NCBI GenBank assembly: GCA_000004985.1
Contig: GG738851.1
Direction: 5' to 3' (one strand)
DNA: 64,000 nucleotides
Source: Naegleria gruberi
Taxonomy: Eukaryota
The notes beneath the pieces are model-generated. The model made no database searches and was not told the DNA's origin. It was given only the letters and a program-made list of their open reading frames with translations. The translations under genes and the position numbers were made by a program. Below, in pieces: positions 14,758 to 28,591 of the stretch; the first letter of the stretch is position 1; each line of letters begins with the position of its first letter.

Positions 14758-16413
14758 CTAGTCAGAAAATGTGAATAGTGTTTCAAATAATTCTTGGAGA
14801 TTTCGTTGAATGGAATGAAGAGCATCTCTTGATATGATTGGTTCCATGCAAGAAAGAGAAATAATGAGCTTGGCAGAGTGTTTCTCATTAGGAGGGAGTG
14901 TGAGAGCGCCACATGCTAAGCATCCAGCCAATGCTGATGTGTTTGCAATTGTGTACATGGAGTGAATAGTCAATGGGGTAGAAGAAAGTTGATAACTTCT
15001 TTTCACAGAATCAAGTTGACCATTATTCGTCACTATAAAGTTAACAGGTAGTCCAGCAAGGAAAACATCATTATTTTCTAATGTTTTGGCCATGGCTGTT
15101 TCTCTAGTGAGAGGAGATTGAAGAACATTTGTCAAAATAAATTGGTTTTCAAAATTGGCTGCGTGATTAGAGAGAATTTGTTTTGCATGACTGACGATGG
15201 TTTTCTTCACATCATAACAGGAATCGAATTTTAAATCCTCAATGAAAACACCCACATGTAAGGAAAGAGTGTTTCCATCCAGAACTTGAGAAAGGTGAGG
15301 AATTTTGCTTAATCCAGTTGGATAACCCACTCTAACACAACTATTTGGATGCAATGGATTTTTGTCATGCTCTCTAGCAGCTTTCAAATAGGCGAGTGAA
15401 AGTAATGGAATAAGGCATGAATTAATTGAGACGCCATGTTGTTTGGTAAAATTTCTAAAGTGCTTTAGAGTGTCCCCTTCAAATTCTAACTTCACCATGC
15501 TAACTGTCTTGTGCTCGTGTCTCCTATCGAATTGGATTAAATATTGGTTAGGTTTGTTGAATATCATCTCCTTGATAAATGGAAAGGCATATTTCAAAGA
15601 TTTCCACTTGGCTGAGAATGAGTTTAATCTTGAATCCATTATTATTTCATCAGTAGATGCAAGTAGTTTCTTAATTTCCACTTGTTCTGTTTCTCTTTCC
15701 ATACTCACATTTTCACATTCTCTCAATACTTGTCCTATAAAATTGGAAATTGAAATTCCGTCTCCTATACTATGATTATATCTCACAATCAAATACAAAT
15801 CATTTCCATTCATATAATAATACAATTCCAATTGAAAATCCTTCTCCAAATCGTAACTCTTTTGTGTGAGTACCTGTTCAATATATTCCTGCATTGGATT
15901 TTCATTCTTCTCAAACTCTTTCATTTCTCCCTCTAAATTAACAATTGGAATGAGAGGAAGATATTGATCATCCATCAATTCAAAAGAAAAAGCCAGTTTT
16001 GAACCCTTTGGATTTCTAATAATTCTACTTCTCAATAGAGGCTGTCCCTTTTGAACTCTATCAACAGCCCTTCTCAATACTCCATCAAAATTAAAAGCCT
16101 TTTCAATTTTAATATGCGCAACTCTAAACACCAAACCATTGCCATACTTTTTCAGAGAGGGAGTCAACATGATTTGTTCATTCGGAGACAAATTTCTTCT
16201 ATCCAGAATATGTCGTTCCTTATCACAATTATTGGTTTTGTAGACATGTGAATTTAAAAGTTGATTGGATTGTGTTGAATAGTTGTAATATGATGATCCT
16301 ATTGTTCTAGAAGTAATTTGGACACTGTTCTTCAGGGATGTTGCAAGCAACAAGGAAGATTTGTGTTGCACTTCTTTAATGGAGCGAACGGAATGCTTTG
16401 CCAATTTAAACAT
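14758..16413 (-). CDS. HxxxDG-motif acyltransferase of the condensation / alcohol-acetyltransferase / WS-DGAT superfamily, 551 aa, with a mitochondrial-presequence-like N-terminus.
   Basis: Single ORF. The motif NHSIGDGIS matches the catalytic HxxxDG of this superfamily. The N-terminus MFKLAKHSVRSIKEVQHKSSLLLATSLK is basic and amphipathic. Confidence 0.5.
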   Translation of the reverse strand: MFKLAKHSVRSIKEVQHKSSLLLATSLKNSVQITSRTIGSSYYNYSTQSNQLLNSHVYKTNNCDKERHILDRRNLSPNEQIMLTPSLKKYGNGLVFRVAHIKIEKAFNFDGVLRRAVDRVQKGQPLLRSRIIRNPKGSKLAFSFELMDDQYLPLIPIVNLEGEMKEFEKNENPMQEYIEQVLTQKSYDLEKDFQLELYYYMNGNDLYLIVRYNHSIGDGISISNFIGQVLRECENVSMERETEQVEIKKLLASTDEIIMDSRLNSFSAKWKSLKYAFPFIKEMIFNKPNQYLIQFDRRHEHKTVSMVKLEFEGDTLKHFRNFTKQHGVSINSCLIPLLSLAYLKAAREHDKNPLHPNSCVRVGYPTGLSKIPHLSQVLDGNTLSLHVGVFIEDLKFDSCYDVKKTIVSHAKQILSNHAANFENQFILTNVLQSPLTRETAMAKTLENNDVFLAGLPVNFIVTNNGQLDSVKRSYQLSSTPLTIHSMYTIANTSALAGCLACGALTLPPNEKHSAKLIISLSCMEPIISRDALHSIQRNLQELFETLFTFSD

Positions 16414-16467: not shown

Positions 16468-16495
16468 ATAGGGCAAAATATTTCAATTCCGATCA
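16468..16495 (+). repeat. Left terminal inverted repeat of the pogo-like element.
   Basis: The sequence was compared directly with the reverse complement of 18538-18565. Confidence 0.8.
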
Positions 16496-16691
16496 CCCTC
16501 GATTTTCGATCATCTTGAACAATTTTAATAGTAAACTTTCAAAGTTTTTATAATGTATATGTAGTAGTGTGGGTCTTCTCTACCCGTATCGTTTGTTTGT
16601 TTTGGTGAATAAATTGTTTTGCAATAAAATTACCAAAGTTTACAACCATGTTTAATATGAAAAAAATATAATTCCGATCACCTTCATCATC

Positions 16692-18474
16692 ATGGTTAAG
16701 AAGAAATTAACAAAAAAGCAGGAACATGAACAACAGCAACAGGAAGAGGAGGAGAAGAGAGAGAAAGCATTAGAATATTATAATACCACAAATGGTGCAT
16801 CCATCAGAAGCGTAGCCAAAAAATTCGACATTCCATATACAACTTTTAATGATCTAGTAAATGGAAGATCATCAATTAATTCACATGCTGGTAGAAAGAC
16901 CTACTTTACTAAAGAGGAAGAGGATGAATTAAAGGAGTGGATATTTGAAAGGAATGATAATAATTTACCTGTCAATGAATATGATGTGATTAACAAAGCC
17001 AACAAGATGTATGAGTACAAGTACAATAAACCAAAAGATCTCTCTGATGGATGGTATCAAGACTTCAGAAGTAGGAATCATGATATTGCTGTTAGAGAAG
17101 CAGAAAGGCTTGAACAAGTTAGAACTGAAAGTGAAAATTCCCAAGTCGTAGAATTATTCTTTGATCAATTAGAGAAGGAAATTAAAAAGAATAACTTAAT
17201 GCCTGACCATATCTATAATTGTGATGAAACAGGAATCCAAAGGAATGAAACTACAGGATACACTCTTGCCAAAAAAAGGAAGTCATCCATCTATGGTAAC
17301 TTCTTCATCTAGAGAAACATGTTCAATACTTGTTTGTGGAAATGCTGCAGGATCATATGTTCCTCCTCTATTTATTTATAAAGGAAAATCCGTATCAGAT
17401 GATATGTTCAGTGATTTGGATAGTAAAGCAACGGTATTTGCTACTGAGAATGGATTTATTACAACAAATTGCTTTTTGAGTTGGATGAAGAAGAACTTTA
17501 TTGAACACATACCTTCAAGTAGACCAGTATTATTATTGTACGATAATCATTCCACTCACTGTGATTCTGATGTGTTGGAATATGCCAAGCAAAATAATAT
17601 TATTGTTATGTCCATTCCACCACACTTGAGTCACTTATATCAACCACTTGATGTAGGTGTTTTCTCATCCATGAAACAAAGTTTCAAACATTTTAATACT
17701 GAGTTCATGAAAAATAATTTAACCTCCTCACCATCCAAAAAAGACTTTACAAAGATATTACATGAAGCATATGAAAATTCTGCATCCCATCATAATATTG
17801 TTAGTGGATTCAAAGAAGCTTGTATTGTACCACTTGATAAGAAGTCAGCACTTGCCAAAATTCAACATTCCAAAAATAGTAATCAAGATGAAAAACCACC
17901 TTCCAAATTTGGAAATTTATTACATGAACCACCAAAACAAACCAAAGAAAAAACCAGAGTGAAAACTAACTTTGTACTAACACGCAACGACTATATGGTA
18001 ACAGCACTAGAAAAAAAAGCAGAAAAAGAAAAACAGAAAAGAAAGAAAGAGGAAGGAAAGACCCTTAGAGAAGCAAAGAAGAAAGCTAAAATCGAAACTC
18101 GTGCCCAAAACACCCTGTTGAAGAAACAGAAGCAACATGGTGTGGTTTGTTCATGTCATCATGCTTGTGGATCTAATCATACATGTAAATGCAAATTGGC
18201 GGGAAAAATGTGTACTATGTATTGTACTTGCCATGCAAAGTGTGCATATTCTATGGATAGAAATCCAACCTCCTCTCCAAGTGCATCATCATCACAAAAT
18301 ATATGCTGCTACTCTGGATGTAAATTTAAAGACGATCATGATGGTATGGTGACATGTTCGACTTGTAAAAAATTATGCCATTCCAAAACATGTACAATGC
18401 CATCAACAGAAACAATCAATGGAAAAGAGATTACCAACATCTTATGTATTGATTGTGGAGAGAAAGAGCCATGA
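16692..18474 (+). CDS. pogo-type transposase of about 590 aa: CENP-B/psq HTH, Tc5 HTH and a DDE_1 catalytic domain, followed by a Lys-rich linker and a C-terminal Cys-rich (CXC/metallothionein-like) domain. The frame is broken once in an A7 run at 17271-17277.
   Basis: ORF1 (16692-17312) ends …YNCDETGIQRNETTGYTLAKKRKSS…. ORF2 (17221-18474) continues …LLPKKGSHPSMVTSSSRETCSILVCGNAAGSYVPPLFIYKGK…LLLYDNHSTHCD…PPHLSHLYQPLDVG…. Removing one A from the A7 run fuses both into a canonical DDE_1 alignment. The C-terminus reads CSCHHACGSNHTCKCKLAGKMCTMYCTCHAKC…. Confidence 0.8.
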
Positions 18475-18537
18475 CTTCCCAATGACTTTTCAAATAAATC
18501 AACAATTTATTGCTGCACCAGTGATCGGAATTTGAAT

Positions 18538-18565
18538 GTGATCGGAATTAAATTATTTTGCCCTA
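18538..18565 (-). repeat. Right terminal inverted repeat of the pogo-like element.
   Basis: The sequence was compared directly with 16468-16495. Confidence 0.8.
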
Positions 18566-23526: not shown

Positions 23527-26500
23527 ATGTTGCAGAGCTGTGCAAGAAGAGAGAAAAACTGGGTGCTGAGTTTCGCTCTAATTATCCTTTACAACATGCT
23601 GATCACACTTCTCATCCTACAAGAACCAACACATGCAACCATGTGTAGATTTGGATCACCAACATTTAATCAAAGAGATTTGTGTTCATCTGTTACAGAA
23701 GGATCATTCCGTCCTTCATGGTGCAGTGAACATAATCCTTTTGCTGCTGTGCCTCACTTGTTTAGTGACAACAAGTTTCCGAAGTGGTTAAATGTAGAGG
23801 ATGGAGCAATTTGTTCCACATCTCAGCCATACATATTCAGCTATATCAATGGAACACTGATTGATAGACCTCAAAGTGAAGATCCAAACAAATACATCTC
23901 ACCAAGAGATAAATGTAGATATATTTCAAAAATTAACACCATAGAGTTTACTGCCTCAGATGACAAGAATCCACAACGATATGTGGTATTGGGTTTAGTA
24001 TCTGGTCAGATTATTCTTATGAACTTTAACAGTGATGAGACGTACTCAGTGGGAAAGACTGATGATATGACCAATATTAGAACATTGGAAACTTTGACAA
24101 ATGGAACTGATTTATATGTGTCCAGTGTTTCTTTTGGTAATTCTGTTTCGTTATTTTATGGTACATCCAATAAGATAGACAACGTTAGATCATGTGGAAA
24201 TATTTTAGAGGTTGAACCAGACAGCGAATATGCACCTGATGTAAGGTTAATCGTGCATGAGAGAAAAATTTATGCATCAGTTGTTGTTTACAATAGTGTA
24301 GAGCAGAGCTTCTACATTCACTTTTACAGACTCTTTGGTTGTTCCTTTACAAAAGAGTTCCAATACAAGATTAAGGAGAAATGGGATTCAAATCTTGACT
24401 TTAAGGTTTCCTCTCAAGTAGGAGGATTCAAGAATAGTCTTACAACGCAAAGTTACCAAAGTGTTAGAACACTATTACAATTTTACACAACCAAGCATGT
24501 GAAAATTATTGAAATGACAACCAAGAATATTGAAATGGATTTGACTACTGTCGATGATTCTACCTTCTTTGTGGCTAATAGCACTGAAGTGATTACGGGC
24601 GCCACTATTGCTTATGAACAAATTAGAAGAGTTGATTTTAGCCAATCTTCTTGTGTTAAAGTTGTTGCAAATAAGGCTCAAGGAGCCAATTTGCTGGTTA
24701 CTCTTAATAGAAATGGTCAGACCATTTTAAGAGCAAGAAACCTGTTAGAGTTTGCAAATTATGCATTCTTTGAAAACCCTGACAGATCTTACTCTAATCC
24801 AGTAGGTAGAACTGTTCAGTGCAATATTTTGAATGGAACATTCTACGATACTAGAACTAGTAGCTGTGTACCATGTTATGAAACAGAGACAGTAATTACA
24901 GAAATTGGTTCTGGAGAGGAAATTCAAGAAATAAGGTAGGTAGTGGATTAATTTTTTCTTTCTAATGTTTTTGCAAAAAAAGAACGAGATTCCATAATGT
25001 ACCGATGGATTATGCTCAATTCTTTGATATTGACTTGGCTGAAAAGCTTGATATTAACGCACTCTGCTATGATATTATGCAAACACCTGCTCTTGCTAGC
25101 TTGTGTCAACAAAACCTCAATCAATCCAATTGTGCTCTAGAGGTCTTTTCCACTTTTGGTCAAACGTTTCTTCCAAACTTGTTGAGTGATTTTTGGGTTA
25201 ATCAAGTATTCATTTCCAAGACAGGTAAAGAAGTTCTAGTTTATGGCCTCCAACAAGAGATGTGTTCTCTTAATGGATTATATCTTGATACTTACAACAA
25301 GATTAGTTTATTGGGAGAGAGTGATTTTATGGATATTACCAGAAATGCACAACACATGTTCGTAACAATTTCAAGAGAACGTTGGGAGCTTCAATCTATT
25401 AATCGATTCTATAGCATTTGTAAGCAATTAGAAATTAATCCTGATGACCCATTCTTGAAACCATTTGCTGAACAATGTAAAGCCAATACACCAACTCCCG
25501 TCACACTCAATCAATTTGGACAATATACATCTAGCTGCTTTAGTGGAATGTCATGCCCATCACTTAAAGAGGTAGAAATAGTCAAAGTTCCTGATGGATA
25601 TTACACATCAAGACCTAACGCTGTGAAGGAATGTGAAAGTACCTATTTCTGTTACCAAGGCATCAGACAAAAATGTCCTCAAGGGTTTAAATGTCCTTAC
25701 AATAAGATGAACAAACCAATTGCTTGTAAATTTTCAAATCAAAATGGAAGGAGAAGAGATGTCAATTCTTGGGATACACCAAAGGGATCAGATACATGTT
25801 TCTCACCAGGAAACAGTGTTGCTCAACCATGCCTTAACGGAACAATTTGTGTTACTCCTTATTTCCCACCACTTCCTATTTCACCTGGGTTATATCTAGA
25901 AGGAAACAAGATTAGAAAATGTAATGTTGGTGATTATTGTAATTTGGGTCGTTTTGTTGGCTCGAACGAAAATAGTTCAGTATTACAATGCCCTGAAAAC
26001 ACTTATTGTCCTGAGCCAGCGATAATGGAACCATCTCTGTGTATTCCAAATGAAACTATGGCATTGTACTGCCCTTCTGGAACAACAACAAGAATGCCCT
26101 GCAATAGGGGATACTATTGTCCAAGACCTAGTATCCAAACACCTTGTAAATTGACTCAATATTGCGATGTTGGATCCTACGTCCCATCTCCTTGCCCAGC
26201 TGGCTATTACTGTCCATCACCTTCAGAGAAATTGATTTGTCCAAAGGGTTATTATTGTGTTGTGGGTAGTGTGTACCCAACTGGTTGTCCAACCTTCTCA
26301 ATCTGTCCAGAAGGAACCAAGGCCTATGAGGATTATGCATTGGGTGTTTTAATTGATATTTTAATTGCTGCAGCTGTTTTCTTGACTTACAAAATTTACG
26401 TATGGACCAAAGCATGTTGGAATAAATTCCAAGAAAAGAGAAGAAATAAGAAGAAGGAAGAAAGAGCTCAAAAAGTACTTAGCACTGCTCAGTTGGATCC

Positions 26501-28591
26501 TTTAGTTTCATTCTCTCAATATATCCCTAAGTTGACTGTTTCAGAAGTTATGGAAGGTTTATATAAGGAGGTTAGAGTTGAAATTGCATTCGAAAATTTG
26601 TCCCTCGATTTGAAAACCAACAATAAGAGAATTTTACATAATTTAAATGGTAAATTCAGAGCTGGTAGATTGACCTGTATTATGGGCCCTAGTGGTAGTG
26701 GTAAGACCACCTTGTTATCAGCTATTAGTGGTAAGGCACCTTATGCCAATGTGGTTGGTGATATCAAGATTAATGGTGTCAAGAGTTCCATGAAGAAATT
26801 CAAAAACGTTTGTGCATTTGTTCAACAAGAAGATTGTATGCATAGAGAGTTGACTGTTGAAGAATGTATTTATTTCTCTGCCAGAACTAGACTGAATGCA
26901 AAAGTGAGTCAAAAAACAATTGATTCCATTGTAGATGGTGTTATTCAAATTTTGGATTTGAATCACGTAAGACACTCAATTATTGGCGATGAAACAAAGA
27001 GAGGTATTTCAGGTGGTCAAAGAAAGAGAGTCAGTATTGCTATGGAATTGGTTGCTTGTCCATATGTTTTATTCCGTAAGTTTCAATTTTATATATAATG
27101 TTAACACTTCTCATAGTTGATGAACCTACTAGCTCCTTGGATGCCTACAGTAGTTTTGAAGTATCGAAAGCAATGAAGGATATTGCCTCTAGTGGTATAA
27201 CAGTAGTGGCAGTGTTGCATCAACCTAGATTTGAGATATTTGAAATGTTTGATGATGTTGTCTTGCTTGGTAATGGAGGTAGAATTGTTTACATGGGACC
27301 TTCTAAGGATGCTCTGAACTATTTCTCTGAGAAACTTCAATTGGAACCTCCTCCATTTGTTAATCCAAGTGATTTCTTCCTGGATGCTATTTACGATCCA
27401 AGTTTCACTTATCAAAATCAATCTAAGAGAACTGGAAAATATGTTAAATCTATGACCTGCCAAGAAATGTTTGATTTGTGGGAAGAAAATTCCAAGCAGA
27501 TTCAGGCCACTCCAATTGAAGCCAATATTTCATATGAATCTCTTAGAAAAGAGGAGAAATCCAGAGGACAAAATCCACTCATTCATTTGTATATGTGTAT
27601 TAGAAGATCATTCATATTGAGAATCAGAGACATTATGGGATTCTTTGTTGATTGTCTGTTAGTTTATATTGCAGGATTGGCACTTGGTATGATTTTCTTA
27701 AAGGATGCCTATGTTGGACCACTTCCTGAAGATATTATAGATACATGTCCTGCTGCTATTAGAAAGATTTGTGAATATCCATTGAATAATCCAATTATCA
27801 ATGTTGCCAGTACAATCCCTCTTGCCTTGGGATTGTGTGCAGGTATGTCTTCACTTGGAACATTTGGTACAAGACAAGAACAAGTAATTTTCAAGAAGGA
27901 ACAAGCTGCTGGATTATCTGTCATGTCCTATTTCTTGTCGAAAATGTTAGAACAAATTCCAAATATTGTTCTGGGTCCAGTTGTGTTCCTTTCCATTTTC
28001 TTCTCACTCTATTCACCACGAGCTACTTTCTGGGAATATTATTTGGTACTTTTGATGATGCACTTTACAACATTTGGATTAGGAACATTGATAAGTGTTT
28101 GTGTCAAGTTGGATTTGATTCAATTGGCCACAGCTGTCTTGATTCTCGTTTCACAACTTGTTGGAGGTAGTAAGCCAACTATTCCACAAATGAAAGAAAT
28201 TATTCCGCCACTCTTTTGGATCAGTTGCGTCTCCTATGTCAGATATGCACAAGAAGCATTATATTTAATGGAAATCAAGTACTATAAGGATATATTCGAT
28301 ATCAGGTCCTCTTTGGAAGTATTTGATTATGATTTGAGTAATATTGATTTCTGTATTGGAATGATCCCAGTTTTTGGTGTTGCCTTTAGAATTTTAACCT
28401 TGATAGCTCTTTATCAGAAGAGTGATGATTCATTGTGGAGCACTCTTTGGATGTATTTTACTTATTATTCAAATGTTGATAATTTGAAACTAACTGCTAA
28501 ATCATTCTTGAAGAAGTTTAAGAGAACTAAGAAAAAGAATGAAAACGAAGAATTATTACTCAGCACCAACGGTGATACAATAGTGCAATAA
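23527..28591 (+). CDS. ABCG-type (White-like) half transporter of 1657 aa with a large N-terminal extracellular domain. Layout: signal peptide, about 900-aa ectodomain with GCC2/GCC3-like Cys repeats, a TM helix, the NBD, then a 6-TM domain. Exons: 23527..24935, 24983..27075, 27117..28591. Introns 24936-24982 and 27076-27116.
   Basis: NBD motifs are present: Walker A GPSGSGKTT, Q-loop, ABC signature ISGGQRKRVSIAME, Walker B VLF|LDEPTSSLD (split by the 41-nt intron GTAAGT…CTCATAG), and an HQP H-loop, followed by six hydrophobic helices. The N-terminal region carries repeated CPxGYYCP / YCP…C units and a TM helix (ALGVLIDILIAAAVFLTYKIYVW) just before the NBD. The first junction uses donor AG|GTAGGT and acceptor AAAAAAAG|A. 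The total length is divisible by 3. Confidence 0.7.

What the first reader, a model, noticed from the sequence alone, without database searches (positions are those of the whole stretch)
17255..17290. Transposase ORF broken exactly once, at an A7 homopolymer (possible slippage or programmed frameshift rather than decay)
The HTH/DDE N-terminal part (ORF 16692-17312) and the rest of the DDE_1 domain (ORF 17221-18474) are in different frames. Deleting one A from the run AAAAAAA at 17271-17277 fuses them into a canonical pogo alignment (…DETGIQ…LAKKGSHPSMVTSSSRETCSILVCGNAAG…). No other lesion is visible in about 1.8 kb. Slippery A-runs are classic sites of transcriptional slippage and -1/+1 ribosomal frameshifting in transposases. 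A single-base assembly error or a very recent inactivating mutation are the alternatives.
Basis: partly seen in the sequence, partly recalled or inferred. Interest (0 to 1): 0.5.

Follow-up and report, generated by a model that had tools for sequence, protein, structure and literature searches.

The report
Frameshifted pogo transposon copy in Naegleria
A jumping-gene copy in the amoeba Naegleria gruberi has its transposase gene broken by one extra A in a run of A's, which looks like an ordinary recent inactivating mutation rather than a deliberate recoding signal.

Summary
ORF1 (16692-17312) and ORF2 (17221-18474) belong to one pogo/Tigger-like transposase. Removing one A from the A7 run at 17271-17277 gives a 593-aa protein that aligns without a gap to its relatives and keeps the DD35D catalytic residues. 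The window is Naegleria gruberi NEG-M, a Sanger assembly. The element is 2093 bp (16471-18563), with 30-nt terminal inverted repeats and a TA target-site duplication.

The recoding idea is not supported:
- Only a +1/-2 shift restores the frame. The -1 frame stops after 9 codons.
- The closest relative whose DNA I could read has A6 in frame at the same site, so A7 is derived.
- The would-be pause codon AGG is not rare, and there is no downstream RNA structure.
- All six related loci I could read are damaged, each at a different place. One has a stop codon, one a deletion in a C-run, two a break in the linker (one near an A7 run), and one is an internal-deletion derivative.

The best explanation is a slippage insertion, A6 to A7, in a young copy. 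An assembly error and a low-level Ty1-like +1 shift at AAA_AGG_A remain possible. I could not retrieve other N. gruberi copies or reads, so the decisive test was not run. The finding is ordinary.

The parts
16471..18563 (+). Complete pogo/Tigger-like DNA transposon copy, 2093 bp
   Evidence: The ends are GGGCAAAATA...TATTTTGCCC. The terminal 30 nt are 26/30 identical as inverted repeats. The 12-mer AATTCCGATCAC occurs 4 times, only in this element, against 0.38 expected.
16469..16470 (.). Left TA target-site duplication
   Evidence: TA lies directly outside the GGGC terminus. Relatives L001 and L007 show the same TA next to the same terminus.
18564..18565 (.). Right TA target-site duplication
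   Evidence: The sequence reads ...TTTTGCCC|TA|ATAG.
16471..16500 (+). Left terminal inverted repeat, containing one AATTCCGATCAC motif (16485-16496); a second copy lies at 16670-16681
18534..18563 (-). Right terminal inverted repeat, with two AATTCCGATCAC motifs on the minus strand (18521-18532 and 18538-18549)
16692..17312 (+). ORF1. It holds the N-terminal part of the transposase (HTH_psq, HTH_Tnp_Tc5/CENP-B-like, first catalytic Asp in CDETG), followed by 11 out-of-frame codons and TAG.
17271..17277 (+). A7 run holding the single extra base. The 0-frame reads GCC AAA AAA AGG; the restored reading is GCC AAA AAA GGA (Ala-Lys-Lys-Gly).
   Evidence: L001 has A6 at the aligned position.
17278..18474 (+). 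Remainder of the transposase in the +1 frame (ORF2 as listed starts at 17221). It holds the DDE_1 domain with the second and third catalytic Asp (DNHSTH, QPLD; 35 residues between them), a Lys/Glu-rich linker and a C-terminal Cys-rich module.

Best explanation
This is a young, otherwise intact copy of a pogo/Tigger-like cut-and-paste transposon in Naegleria gruberi. Its single-ORF transposase gene gained one extra A in an ancestral A6 run (Lys-Lys, AAA AAA). This is a replication-slippage insertion at a mutational hot spot. The copy now encodes a 206-aa truncated DNA-binding fragment and is a fresh pseudogene. If it still moves, it depends on transposase from other copies. Shown: the anatomy, the single lesion, and that the A7 state is derived relative to the sister lineage. 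Inferred: that the extra A is a real germline mutation and not a sequencing error, and that it is not functionally compensated.
For: - One-base repair gives a full-length 593-aa protein with gapless alignment and invariant D178, D284 and D320 (DD35D).
- The closest relative with DNA (L001, 56-58% amino-acid identity) reads CTTGCC-AAAAAA-GGAAGT in frame where the window has AAAAAAA. More distant relatives encode the same Lys-Lys or Ile-Lys with interrupted codons (AAG AAA, ATT AAG).
- N. fowleri P0002 and P0001-P0004 are continuous across this site.
- Every related DNA locus retrieved is damaged at a different place. L001 has an in-frame TGA. L008 has a CCC to CC deletion. L004/L005 have a linker break. 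L006 has a break in an interval containing an A7 run. L007 is a 789-bp internal-deletion derivative, about 98% identical to this element, with its own TA duplication.
- Two further lesions sit in or next to homopolymers, which fits homopolymer indel hot spots.
- No recoding signals were found. The -1 frame is closed. AGG makes up 13% of Arg codons, 5.5 per 1000. There is no downstream structure (z = +0.43).
- The host assembly is Sanger (PMC9928731 Table 1; window identity to N. gruberi). This makes a homopolymer miscall less likely than in 454 or nanopore data.
Against: No other N. gruberi copy could be read at this site. The second copy implied by P0008 was not retrievable, and L007 lacks the region. 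I therefore could not show that A7 is private to this copy. The absence of any second lesion fits a very recent mutation, but it equally fits an assembly error or a tolerated frameshift. The site formally resembles a Ty1-type +1 site (AAA_AGG_A, with the common Gly codon GGA in the +1 frame).
Confidence: 0.75

Rival explanations
1. Sequencing or assembly error. The real locus has A6 and encodes an intact, potentially active transposase. The extra A comes from the consensus, for example from a miscalled homopolymer or from reads of another copy of the repeat being merged.
For: The lesion is a single base in a homopolymer, the commonest type of consensus error. Nothing else is wrong in 1.8 kb. 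The element is a multicopy repeat: a second copy is implied by P0008 on a different scaffold. Read mixing is therefore conceivable.
Against: The NEG-M assembly is Sanger-based, and A7 runs are normally read accurately in Sanger data. The only frame discontinuity in the neighbouring host genes that I looked at, at 27086-27126, looks like a GT..AG intron rather than a homopolymer break. I examined only that one. A8 and A6 runs elsewhere in the same ORF are in frame.
Confidence: 0.15
2. Recoding. Some ribosomes shift +1 at AAA_AGG_A: peptidyl-tRNA-Lys re-pairs AAA to AAA, the A-site holds AGG, and the incoming +1 codon is GGA. Alternatively, RNA polymerase II drops one A on the A7 tract. Either way the main product would be the 206-aa HTH protein, a possible repressor, with a little full-length transposase, as in bacterial IS1/IS3/IS630 elements.
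For: ORF2 is in the +1 frame, and the P-site codon can re-pair perfectly. The 0-frame A-site codon AGG and the +1 codon GGA (47% of Gly codons) mimic the Ty1 CUU_AGG_C logic (PMC5009743). The dicodon AAA-AGG occurs 0 times in 12,769 host codons against about 2.8 expected; this is a weak signal. Frameshift-dependent transposases exist in IS630 and in the ciliate Tec/TBE members of the same superfamily. The break leaves a complete DNA-binding module upstream.
Against: The sister lineage has A6 in frame and other relatives are continuous, so there is no conservation. AGG is not rare in this genome. No stimulatory structure was found. The break lies inside the catalytic fold, between the first and second catalytic Asp, not at a domain boundary. 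A7 is short for efficient Pol II slippage or ribosome sliding (own knowledge, not tested). Relatives show random, unrelated lesions.
Confidence: 0.07
3. A short spliceosomal intron spans the region and joins the two frames in the mature mRNA.
For: The host is a eukaryote with short introns; a likely intron of about 41 nt lies at 27086-27126. Twenty-seven GT..AG pairs formally restore an ORF.
Against: Every candidate removes residues that are conserved and colinear in relatives. The shortest, 17282-17312 (31 nt), deletes GSHPSMVTSSSR, including the Arg conserved in the five closest family members. The closest relative encodes this stretch as uninterrupted coding sequence.
Confidence: 0.01

Closest known systems
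pogo/Tigger group of the IS630-Tc1-mariner superfamily (Pfam DDE_1, CENP-B-like HTH; e.g. Drosophila pogo, human Tigger, fungal Fot1)
   Same: It has HTH_psq and HTH_Tnp_Tc5 N-terminal domains, a DDE_1 catalytic domain with DD35D spacing, short TIRs with subterminal repeated motifs, a TA target-site duplication, and a single transposase gene.
   Different: The termini start GGGCAAAAT. The protein carries a roughly 117-aa C-terminal Cys-rich module (18 invariant Cys plus His in four relatives) with no Pfam match. This copy is frameshifted.
Bacterial IS elements with programmed -1 frameshifting or transcriptional slippage at A-runs (IS1, IS3, some IS630; A_AAA_AAG)
   Same: An A-run lies between an upstream DNA-binding ORF and a downstream catalytic ORF (PMC5009743).
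   Different: The downstream ORF is in the +1 frame, not -1. The heptamer is not in X_XXY_YYZ phase. The site is not conserved in relatives. The host is a eukaryote. The break falls inside the catalytic domain.
[quoted passage not shown]
   Same: There is a 0-frame AGG in the A-site, a Gly codon in the +1 frame, and a P-site codon able to re-pair at +1.
   Different: AGG is not a rare codon here. There is no evidence of conservation or use. Ty1 is an LTR retroelement in which the shift sets the Gag:Gag-Pol ratio.
Ordinary frameshifted (pseudogenised) copies of DNA transposons
   Same: There is a single-base indel in a homopolymer. Relatives carry other random lesions and internal deletions.
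   Different: Nothing notable, except that this copy has only one lesion and so is very young.

Membership tests
pogo/Tigger (IS630-Tc1-mariner superfamily) | DDE_1-type catalytic domain | tested here: met
   PF03184 DDE_1, E = 5e-23, 81.9 bits against a cut-off of 22.
pogo/Tigger (IS630-Tc1-mariner superfamily) | DD35D catalytic triad | tested here: met
   D178 (CDETG), D284 (YDNHSTH) and D320 (QPLD) are invariant in the 9-sequence alignment. There are 35 residues between D284 and D320.
pogo/Tigger (IS630-Tc1-mariner superfamily) | N-terminal CENP-B/Tc5-type and psq-type helix-turn-helix DNA-binding domains | tested here: met
   HTH_Tnp_Tc5 scores 36.7 bits against a cut-off of 22.2. HTH_psq scores 19.9 bits, just under its cut-off of 20.4.
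pogo/Tigger (IS630-Tc1-mariner superfamily) | Terminal inverted repeats and TA target-site duplication | tested here: met
   The TIRs are 26/30 identical, with TA on both sides. The same terminus plus TA is seen in L001 and L007.
Programmed -1 ribosomal frameshift (IS3/IS1/retroviral type) | Downstream ORF in the -1 frame | tested here: not met
   ORF2 is +1 relative to ORF1. The -1 frame ends at TAA 17297-17299.
Programmed -1 ribosomal frameshift (IS3/IS1/retroviral type) | X_XXY_YYZ heptamer in phase, plus a downstream stimulatory structure | tested here: not met
   The 0-frame reads GCC_AAA_AAA_AGG. There is no significant structure in 17278-17400 (z = +0.43).
Programmed +1 ribosomal frameshift (Ty1 / antizyme / Euplotes type) | Downstream ORF in the +1 frame, and a P-site codon that can re-pair at +1 | tested here: met
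   AAA re-pairs to AAA on the A7 run, and ORF2 is in the +1 frame.
Programmed +1 ribosomal frameshift (Ty1 / antizyme / Euplotes type) | Slow-to-decode (rare or stop) 0-frame A-site codon | tested here: inconclusive
   AGG makes up 13% of Arg codons, 5.5 per 1000, and ranks about 13th rarest of 61 in 24 host ORFs. tRNA abundance is unknown.
Programmed +1 ribosomal frameshift (Ty1 / antizyme / Euplotes type) | Conservation of the shift site and two-frame arrangement among related elements | tested here: not met
   L001 has A6 in frame. P0001-P0004 are continuous here. Other N. gruberi copies could not be retrieved.
Transcriptional slippage (IS630 Roseiflexus, IS3 subgroup, potyvirus/paramyxovirus type) | Homopolymeric A/T tract at the frame junction | tested here: met
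   A7 at 17271-17277. This is at the short end of tracts known to slip.
Transcriptional slippage (IS630 Roseiflexus, IS3 subgroup, potyvirus/paramyxovirus type) | Length heterogeneity of the tract in transcripts | not testable with these tools
   No N. gruberi RNA-seq or EST data were accessible.

The most novel reading that the evidence does not exclude
The A7 run is a recently evolved recoding site in a eukaryotic pogo-type transposon. The default product would be a 206-aa HTH protein that binds the AATTCCGATCAC motifs and represses transposition. A rare Ty1-like +1 ribosomal shift at AAA_AGG_A, or loss of one A by Pol II, would yield small amounts of full-length transposase. This would be the IS1/IS3-type self-limiting strategy, so far known in eukaryotic Tc1/mariner-superfamily elements only from ciliates.
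Probability: 0.05. Interest if true: 0.65.

Novelty: new member of a known kind. Interest (0 to 1): 0.13.

Why it matters
As it stands this matters little. It is a textbook example of how a DNA transposon copy dies, by a one-base indel in a homopolymer. It also warns against reading A-runs at ORF junctions as recoding signals without checking the shift direction and conservation. If the recoding reading were true, it would be the first frameshift-regulated pogo-type transposase outside bacteria and ciliates. A minor practical point is that the element gives a nearly intact reference for a Naegleria-clade pogo family with an unclassified C-terminal Cys-rich module. The repaired A6 sequence would be a candidate active transposase for tool-building in Naegleria.

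Tried and rejected
- Exact look-ups of ORF1, ORF2, P0008, P0022 and P0002 in the contig index found nothing on record. No N. gruberi DNA outside the window could be fetched.
- Exact cluster look-up of 10 window ORFs found no matches. For the minus-strand ORFs this was partly my coordinate trimming. Identity to N. gruberi was then shown by homology.
- The metagenome scan with the repaired protein returned only one relative at 30% identity (L002). The viral scan returned one relative at 24% (L003). Neither was informative.
- A DNA pattern across the A-run (A6 or A7) found 0 hits in viral contigs. It found 5 hits in bacterial MAGs that are chance matches with no transposase similarity.
- The intron hypothesis was enumerated and rejected.
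- The -1 PRF hypothesis was rejected on frame.
- Downstream RNA structure was absent for the window, L006 and L004.
- Pfam on the C-terminal Cys-rich module gave no hit even at E up to 10.
- Literature searches for pogo elements in Naegleria or programmed frameshifting in pogo found nothing specific.
- I did not run structure prediction, fold search or the representative-protein search, because they would not bear on mutation versus recoding.

Full report
**Observation**

The window reads ...ACTCTTGCC AAAAAAA GGAAGTCATCC..., with the seven A's at 17271-17277. ORF1 (16692-17312, 206 aa) has codon starts congruent to 0 mod 3. ORF2 (17221-18474, 417 aa) has codon starts congruent to 1 mod 3. The frame change has to happen between the last ORF2-frame stop (TAA at 17197) and the ORF1 stop, that is within 17200-17309.

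Pfam places HTH_psq and HTH_Tnp_Tc5 in ORF1 and DDE_1 in ORF2. Deleting one A yields a 593-aa protein. It aligns to eight relatives without any gap at the junction. P0001 shares the eleven residues YTLAKKGSHPS across it, and the invariant columns include D178, D284 and D320, which gives DD35D spacing. The N-terminus and the C-terminal ...CIDCGEKEP match relatives, so this is the only lesion.

**What and where it is**

The upstream neighbour ORF (14758-16413, minus strand) is 100% identical over its full length to a Naegleria gruberi predicted protein on a 693,645-bp contig. GC content is about 34%. The N. gruberi NEG-M assembly is Sanger-based, with 5.1% repeats (PMC9928731 Table 1).

The element spans 16471-18563 (2093 bp). 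Its terminal 30 nt are 26/30 identical as inverted repeats. TA lies on both flanks. Four copies of AATTCCGATCAC, two per end, occur nowhere else in the 64 kb, against 0.38 expected. It is therefore a complete pogo/Tigger-like cut-and-paste transposon.

A second copy exists on another scaffold. The N. gruberi CobW/TPR gene model P0008 ends in 82 residues identical to window 17836-18087, while its CobW part is absent from the window. The DNA of that copy could not be fetched.

**Direction of the shift**

ORF2 is +1 relative to ORF1. A -1 shift reads QKKEVIHLW and then stops at TAA 17297-17299. The classic IS-type A_AAA_AAG -1 mechanism is therefore excluded. Only three routes could restore the protein: a +1/-2 ribosomal shift, an mRNA with one A fewer, or an mRNA with two A's more.

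**Relatives at the same site**

The closest relative whose DNA I could read is L001. It encodes P0001, is 56-58% identical at the amino-acid level, comes from an ENA metagenome, and has the same TIR terminus plus TA. L001 has CTTGCC-AAAAAA-GGAAGT in frame where the window has AAAAAAA. L004 and L006 encode the equivalent residues with AAG AAA and ATT AAG. N. fowleri P0002 and P0003/P0004 are continuous there. The A7 state is therefore derived from an A6 Lys-Lys run. It is not a conserved two-frame arrangement.

**State of relatives elsewhere**

Every related locus I could read is damaged, and each at a different place.

| Locus | Relationship | Lesion |
|---|---|---|
| L001 | closest relative with DNA | in-frame TGA at nt 305-307 in the N-terminal region |
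| L008 | second copy of the L001 family | CCC to CC deletion near residue 347 |
| L004/L005 | one element, seen in a JGI metagenome contig and a Logan assembly of SRA run SRR636569 | C-terminal module in the -1 frame; break inside GGAGAGGAAGAATGA, with no homopolymer |
| L006 | more distant relative | same kind of break, mapped to an interval of at most about 25 nt that contains an A7 run (CAA AAA AAG) |
| L007 | about 98% identical to the window element at the nucleotide level | 789-bp internal-deletion derivative with intact ends and its own TA duplication; lacks the A-run region |

This is the pattern of ordinary transposon decay, with homopolymers as preferred indel sites. The caveat is that these loci come from sister lineages and environmental samples, not from other N. 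gruberi copies.

**Recoding signals**

- In 24 host ORFs (12,769 codons), AGG makes up 13% of Arg codons, or 5.5 per 1000. It is not a markedly rare codon.
- The 123 nt downstream of the run fold no better than shuffled sequence (z = +0.43).
- The break lies between the first and second catalytic Asp, inside the RNase-H-like fold. This differs from the domain-boundary position typical of IS1/IS3 (PMC5009743).
- On the other side, AAA_AGG_A formally resembles the Ty1 site CUU_AGG_C. It allows perfect +1 re-pairing, has AGG in the A-site, and has the most common Gly codon GGA in the +1 frame.
- AAA-AGG dicodons are absent from the host ORFs against about 2.8 expected. This is weak evidence.
- A≥7 runs are rare in host ORFs, 2 in 38.3 kb, whereas the element has two, A7 and A8.

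None of these points amounts to positive evidence for recoding.

**Intron alternative**

Twenty-seven GT..AG pairs would formally restore an ORF. All of them delete residues that are colinear and conserved in relatives. The shortest, 17282-17312 (31 nt), removes GSHPSMVTSSSR, including the Arg conserved in the five closest family members. I reject this alternative.

**Verdict**

- The best explanation, at about 0.75, is a real and very recent one-base insertion (A6 to A7) that inactivated an otherwise intact copy.
- An assembly or consensus error, at about 0.15, cannot be excluded without reads, although Sanger data make it less likely.
- Functional recoding, at about 0.07 including merely adventitious low-level slippage, is not supported but not excluded.
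- An intron is at about 0.01.

They are the other NEG-M copies, read pile-ups at the locus, and transcript heterogeneity.

**Comparison with known systems**

The element passes all the tests I could apply for the pogo/Tigger group: DDE_1, DD35D, Tc5/psq HTH domains, TIRs and a TA duplication. It fails the defining tests for -1 PRF. For +1 PRF and for transcriptional slippage it meets only the trivial geometric requirements. It is an apparently undescribed but ordinary member of a known kind. The frameshift itself is an ordinary pseudogenising lesion.

Noticed in passing
window 18120-18471 (C-terminal ~117 aa of ORF2); also L001, L004 1835-2401, L006 1637-2158: The transposase carries a conserved C-terminal Cys-rich module. 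A CxC-rich block is followed by a second Cys/His cluster that ends C-x2-CGE[KR]E. Eighteen Cys and one His are invariant among four relatives at 38-60% identity. There is no Pfam hit even at E up to 10, and only 3 database proteins match its profile. It may be a zinc-binding targeting domain specific to this Naegleria-clade pogo family.
   Followed up: partly
L004 1818-1838, L005 1651-1671, L006 ~1556-1580: In two diverged relatives the 408-aa HTH+DDE ORF is followed by the Cys-rich module in the -1 frame. In L006 the frame change maps to an interval containing CAA_AAA_AAG, which is A_AAA_AAG in the correct phase for -1 slippage. In L004/L005 there is no slippery sequence. Downstream folding is not significant in either (z = -0.16 and +0.69). 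These are probably independent lesions in a low-constraint linker that still leave a working core transposase. The shared direction and position are nonetheless a small coincidence.
   Followed up: partly
L007 199-987 (ENA ERR1078381, PRJEB11402): This is a 789-bp internally deleted derivative of the same element family. The retained segments, corresponding to window 16622-16939, 17733-17809 and 18242-18565, are 95-98% identical. Both TIRs are intact and it has its own TA duplication at a different insertion site. It is a non-autonomous, MITE-like copy in an environmental sample, which implies past mobility of the family.
   Followed up: partly
window 17836-18087 versus protein P0008: The N. 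gruberi gene model P0008 (TPR + CobW GTPase, 439 aa, on a 362,555-bp scaffold) ends in 82 residues identical to this transposase's linker region. A second copy of the element therefore sits in or next to that gene. It has been annotated as its last exon, either as a chimeric gene model or as exonisation.
   Followed up: partly
window 16485-16496, 16670-16681, 18521-18532, 18538-18549: The 12-mer AATTCCGATCAC occurs four times, two per element end in inverted orientation, and nowhere else in 64 kb (0.38 expected). These are likely transposase-binding sites. The inner left copy lies just upstream of the ORF1 start codon.
   Followed up: no
window 18011-18018: An A8 run (GAA AAA AAA GCA) lies in frame inside the Lys/Glu-rich linker of ORF2. 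It is longer than the broken A7 run yet intact, so it is a second slippage-prone site in the same gene.
   Followed up: no
window 27086-27126: ORFs 25005-27098 and 27098-28591 (+ strand) abut in different frames across GTAAGTTTC...CTCATAG. This looks like a very short (about 41 nt) spliceosomal intron joining one host gene, not a frameshift.
   Followed up: no
L008 ~200-216 versus L001 ~901-917: L008 is a second copy of the L001-type element from a different ENA sample. It has a 1-nt deletion in a C-run (CATCCCAAT to CATCCAAT) that splits its transposase. This is another homopolymer-associated lesion in the clade.
   Followed up: partly
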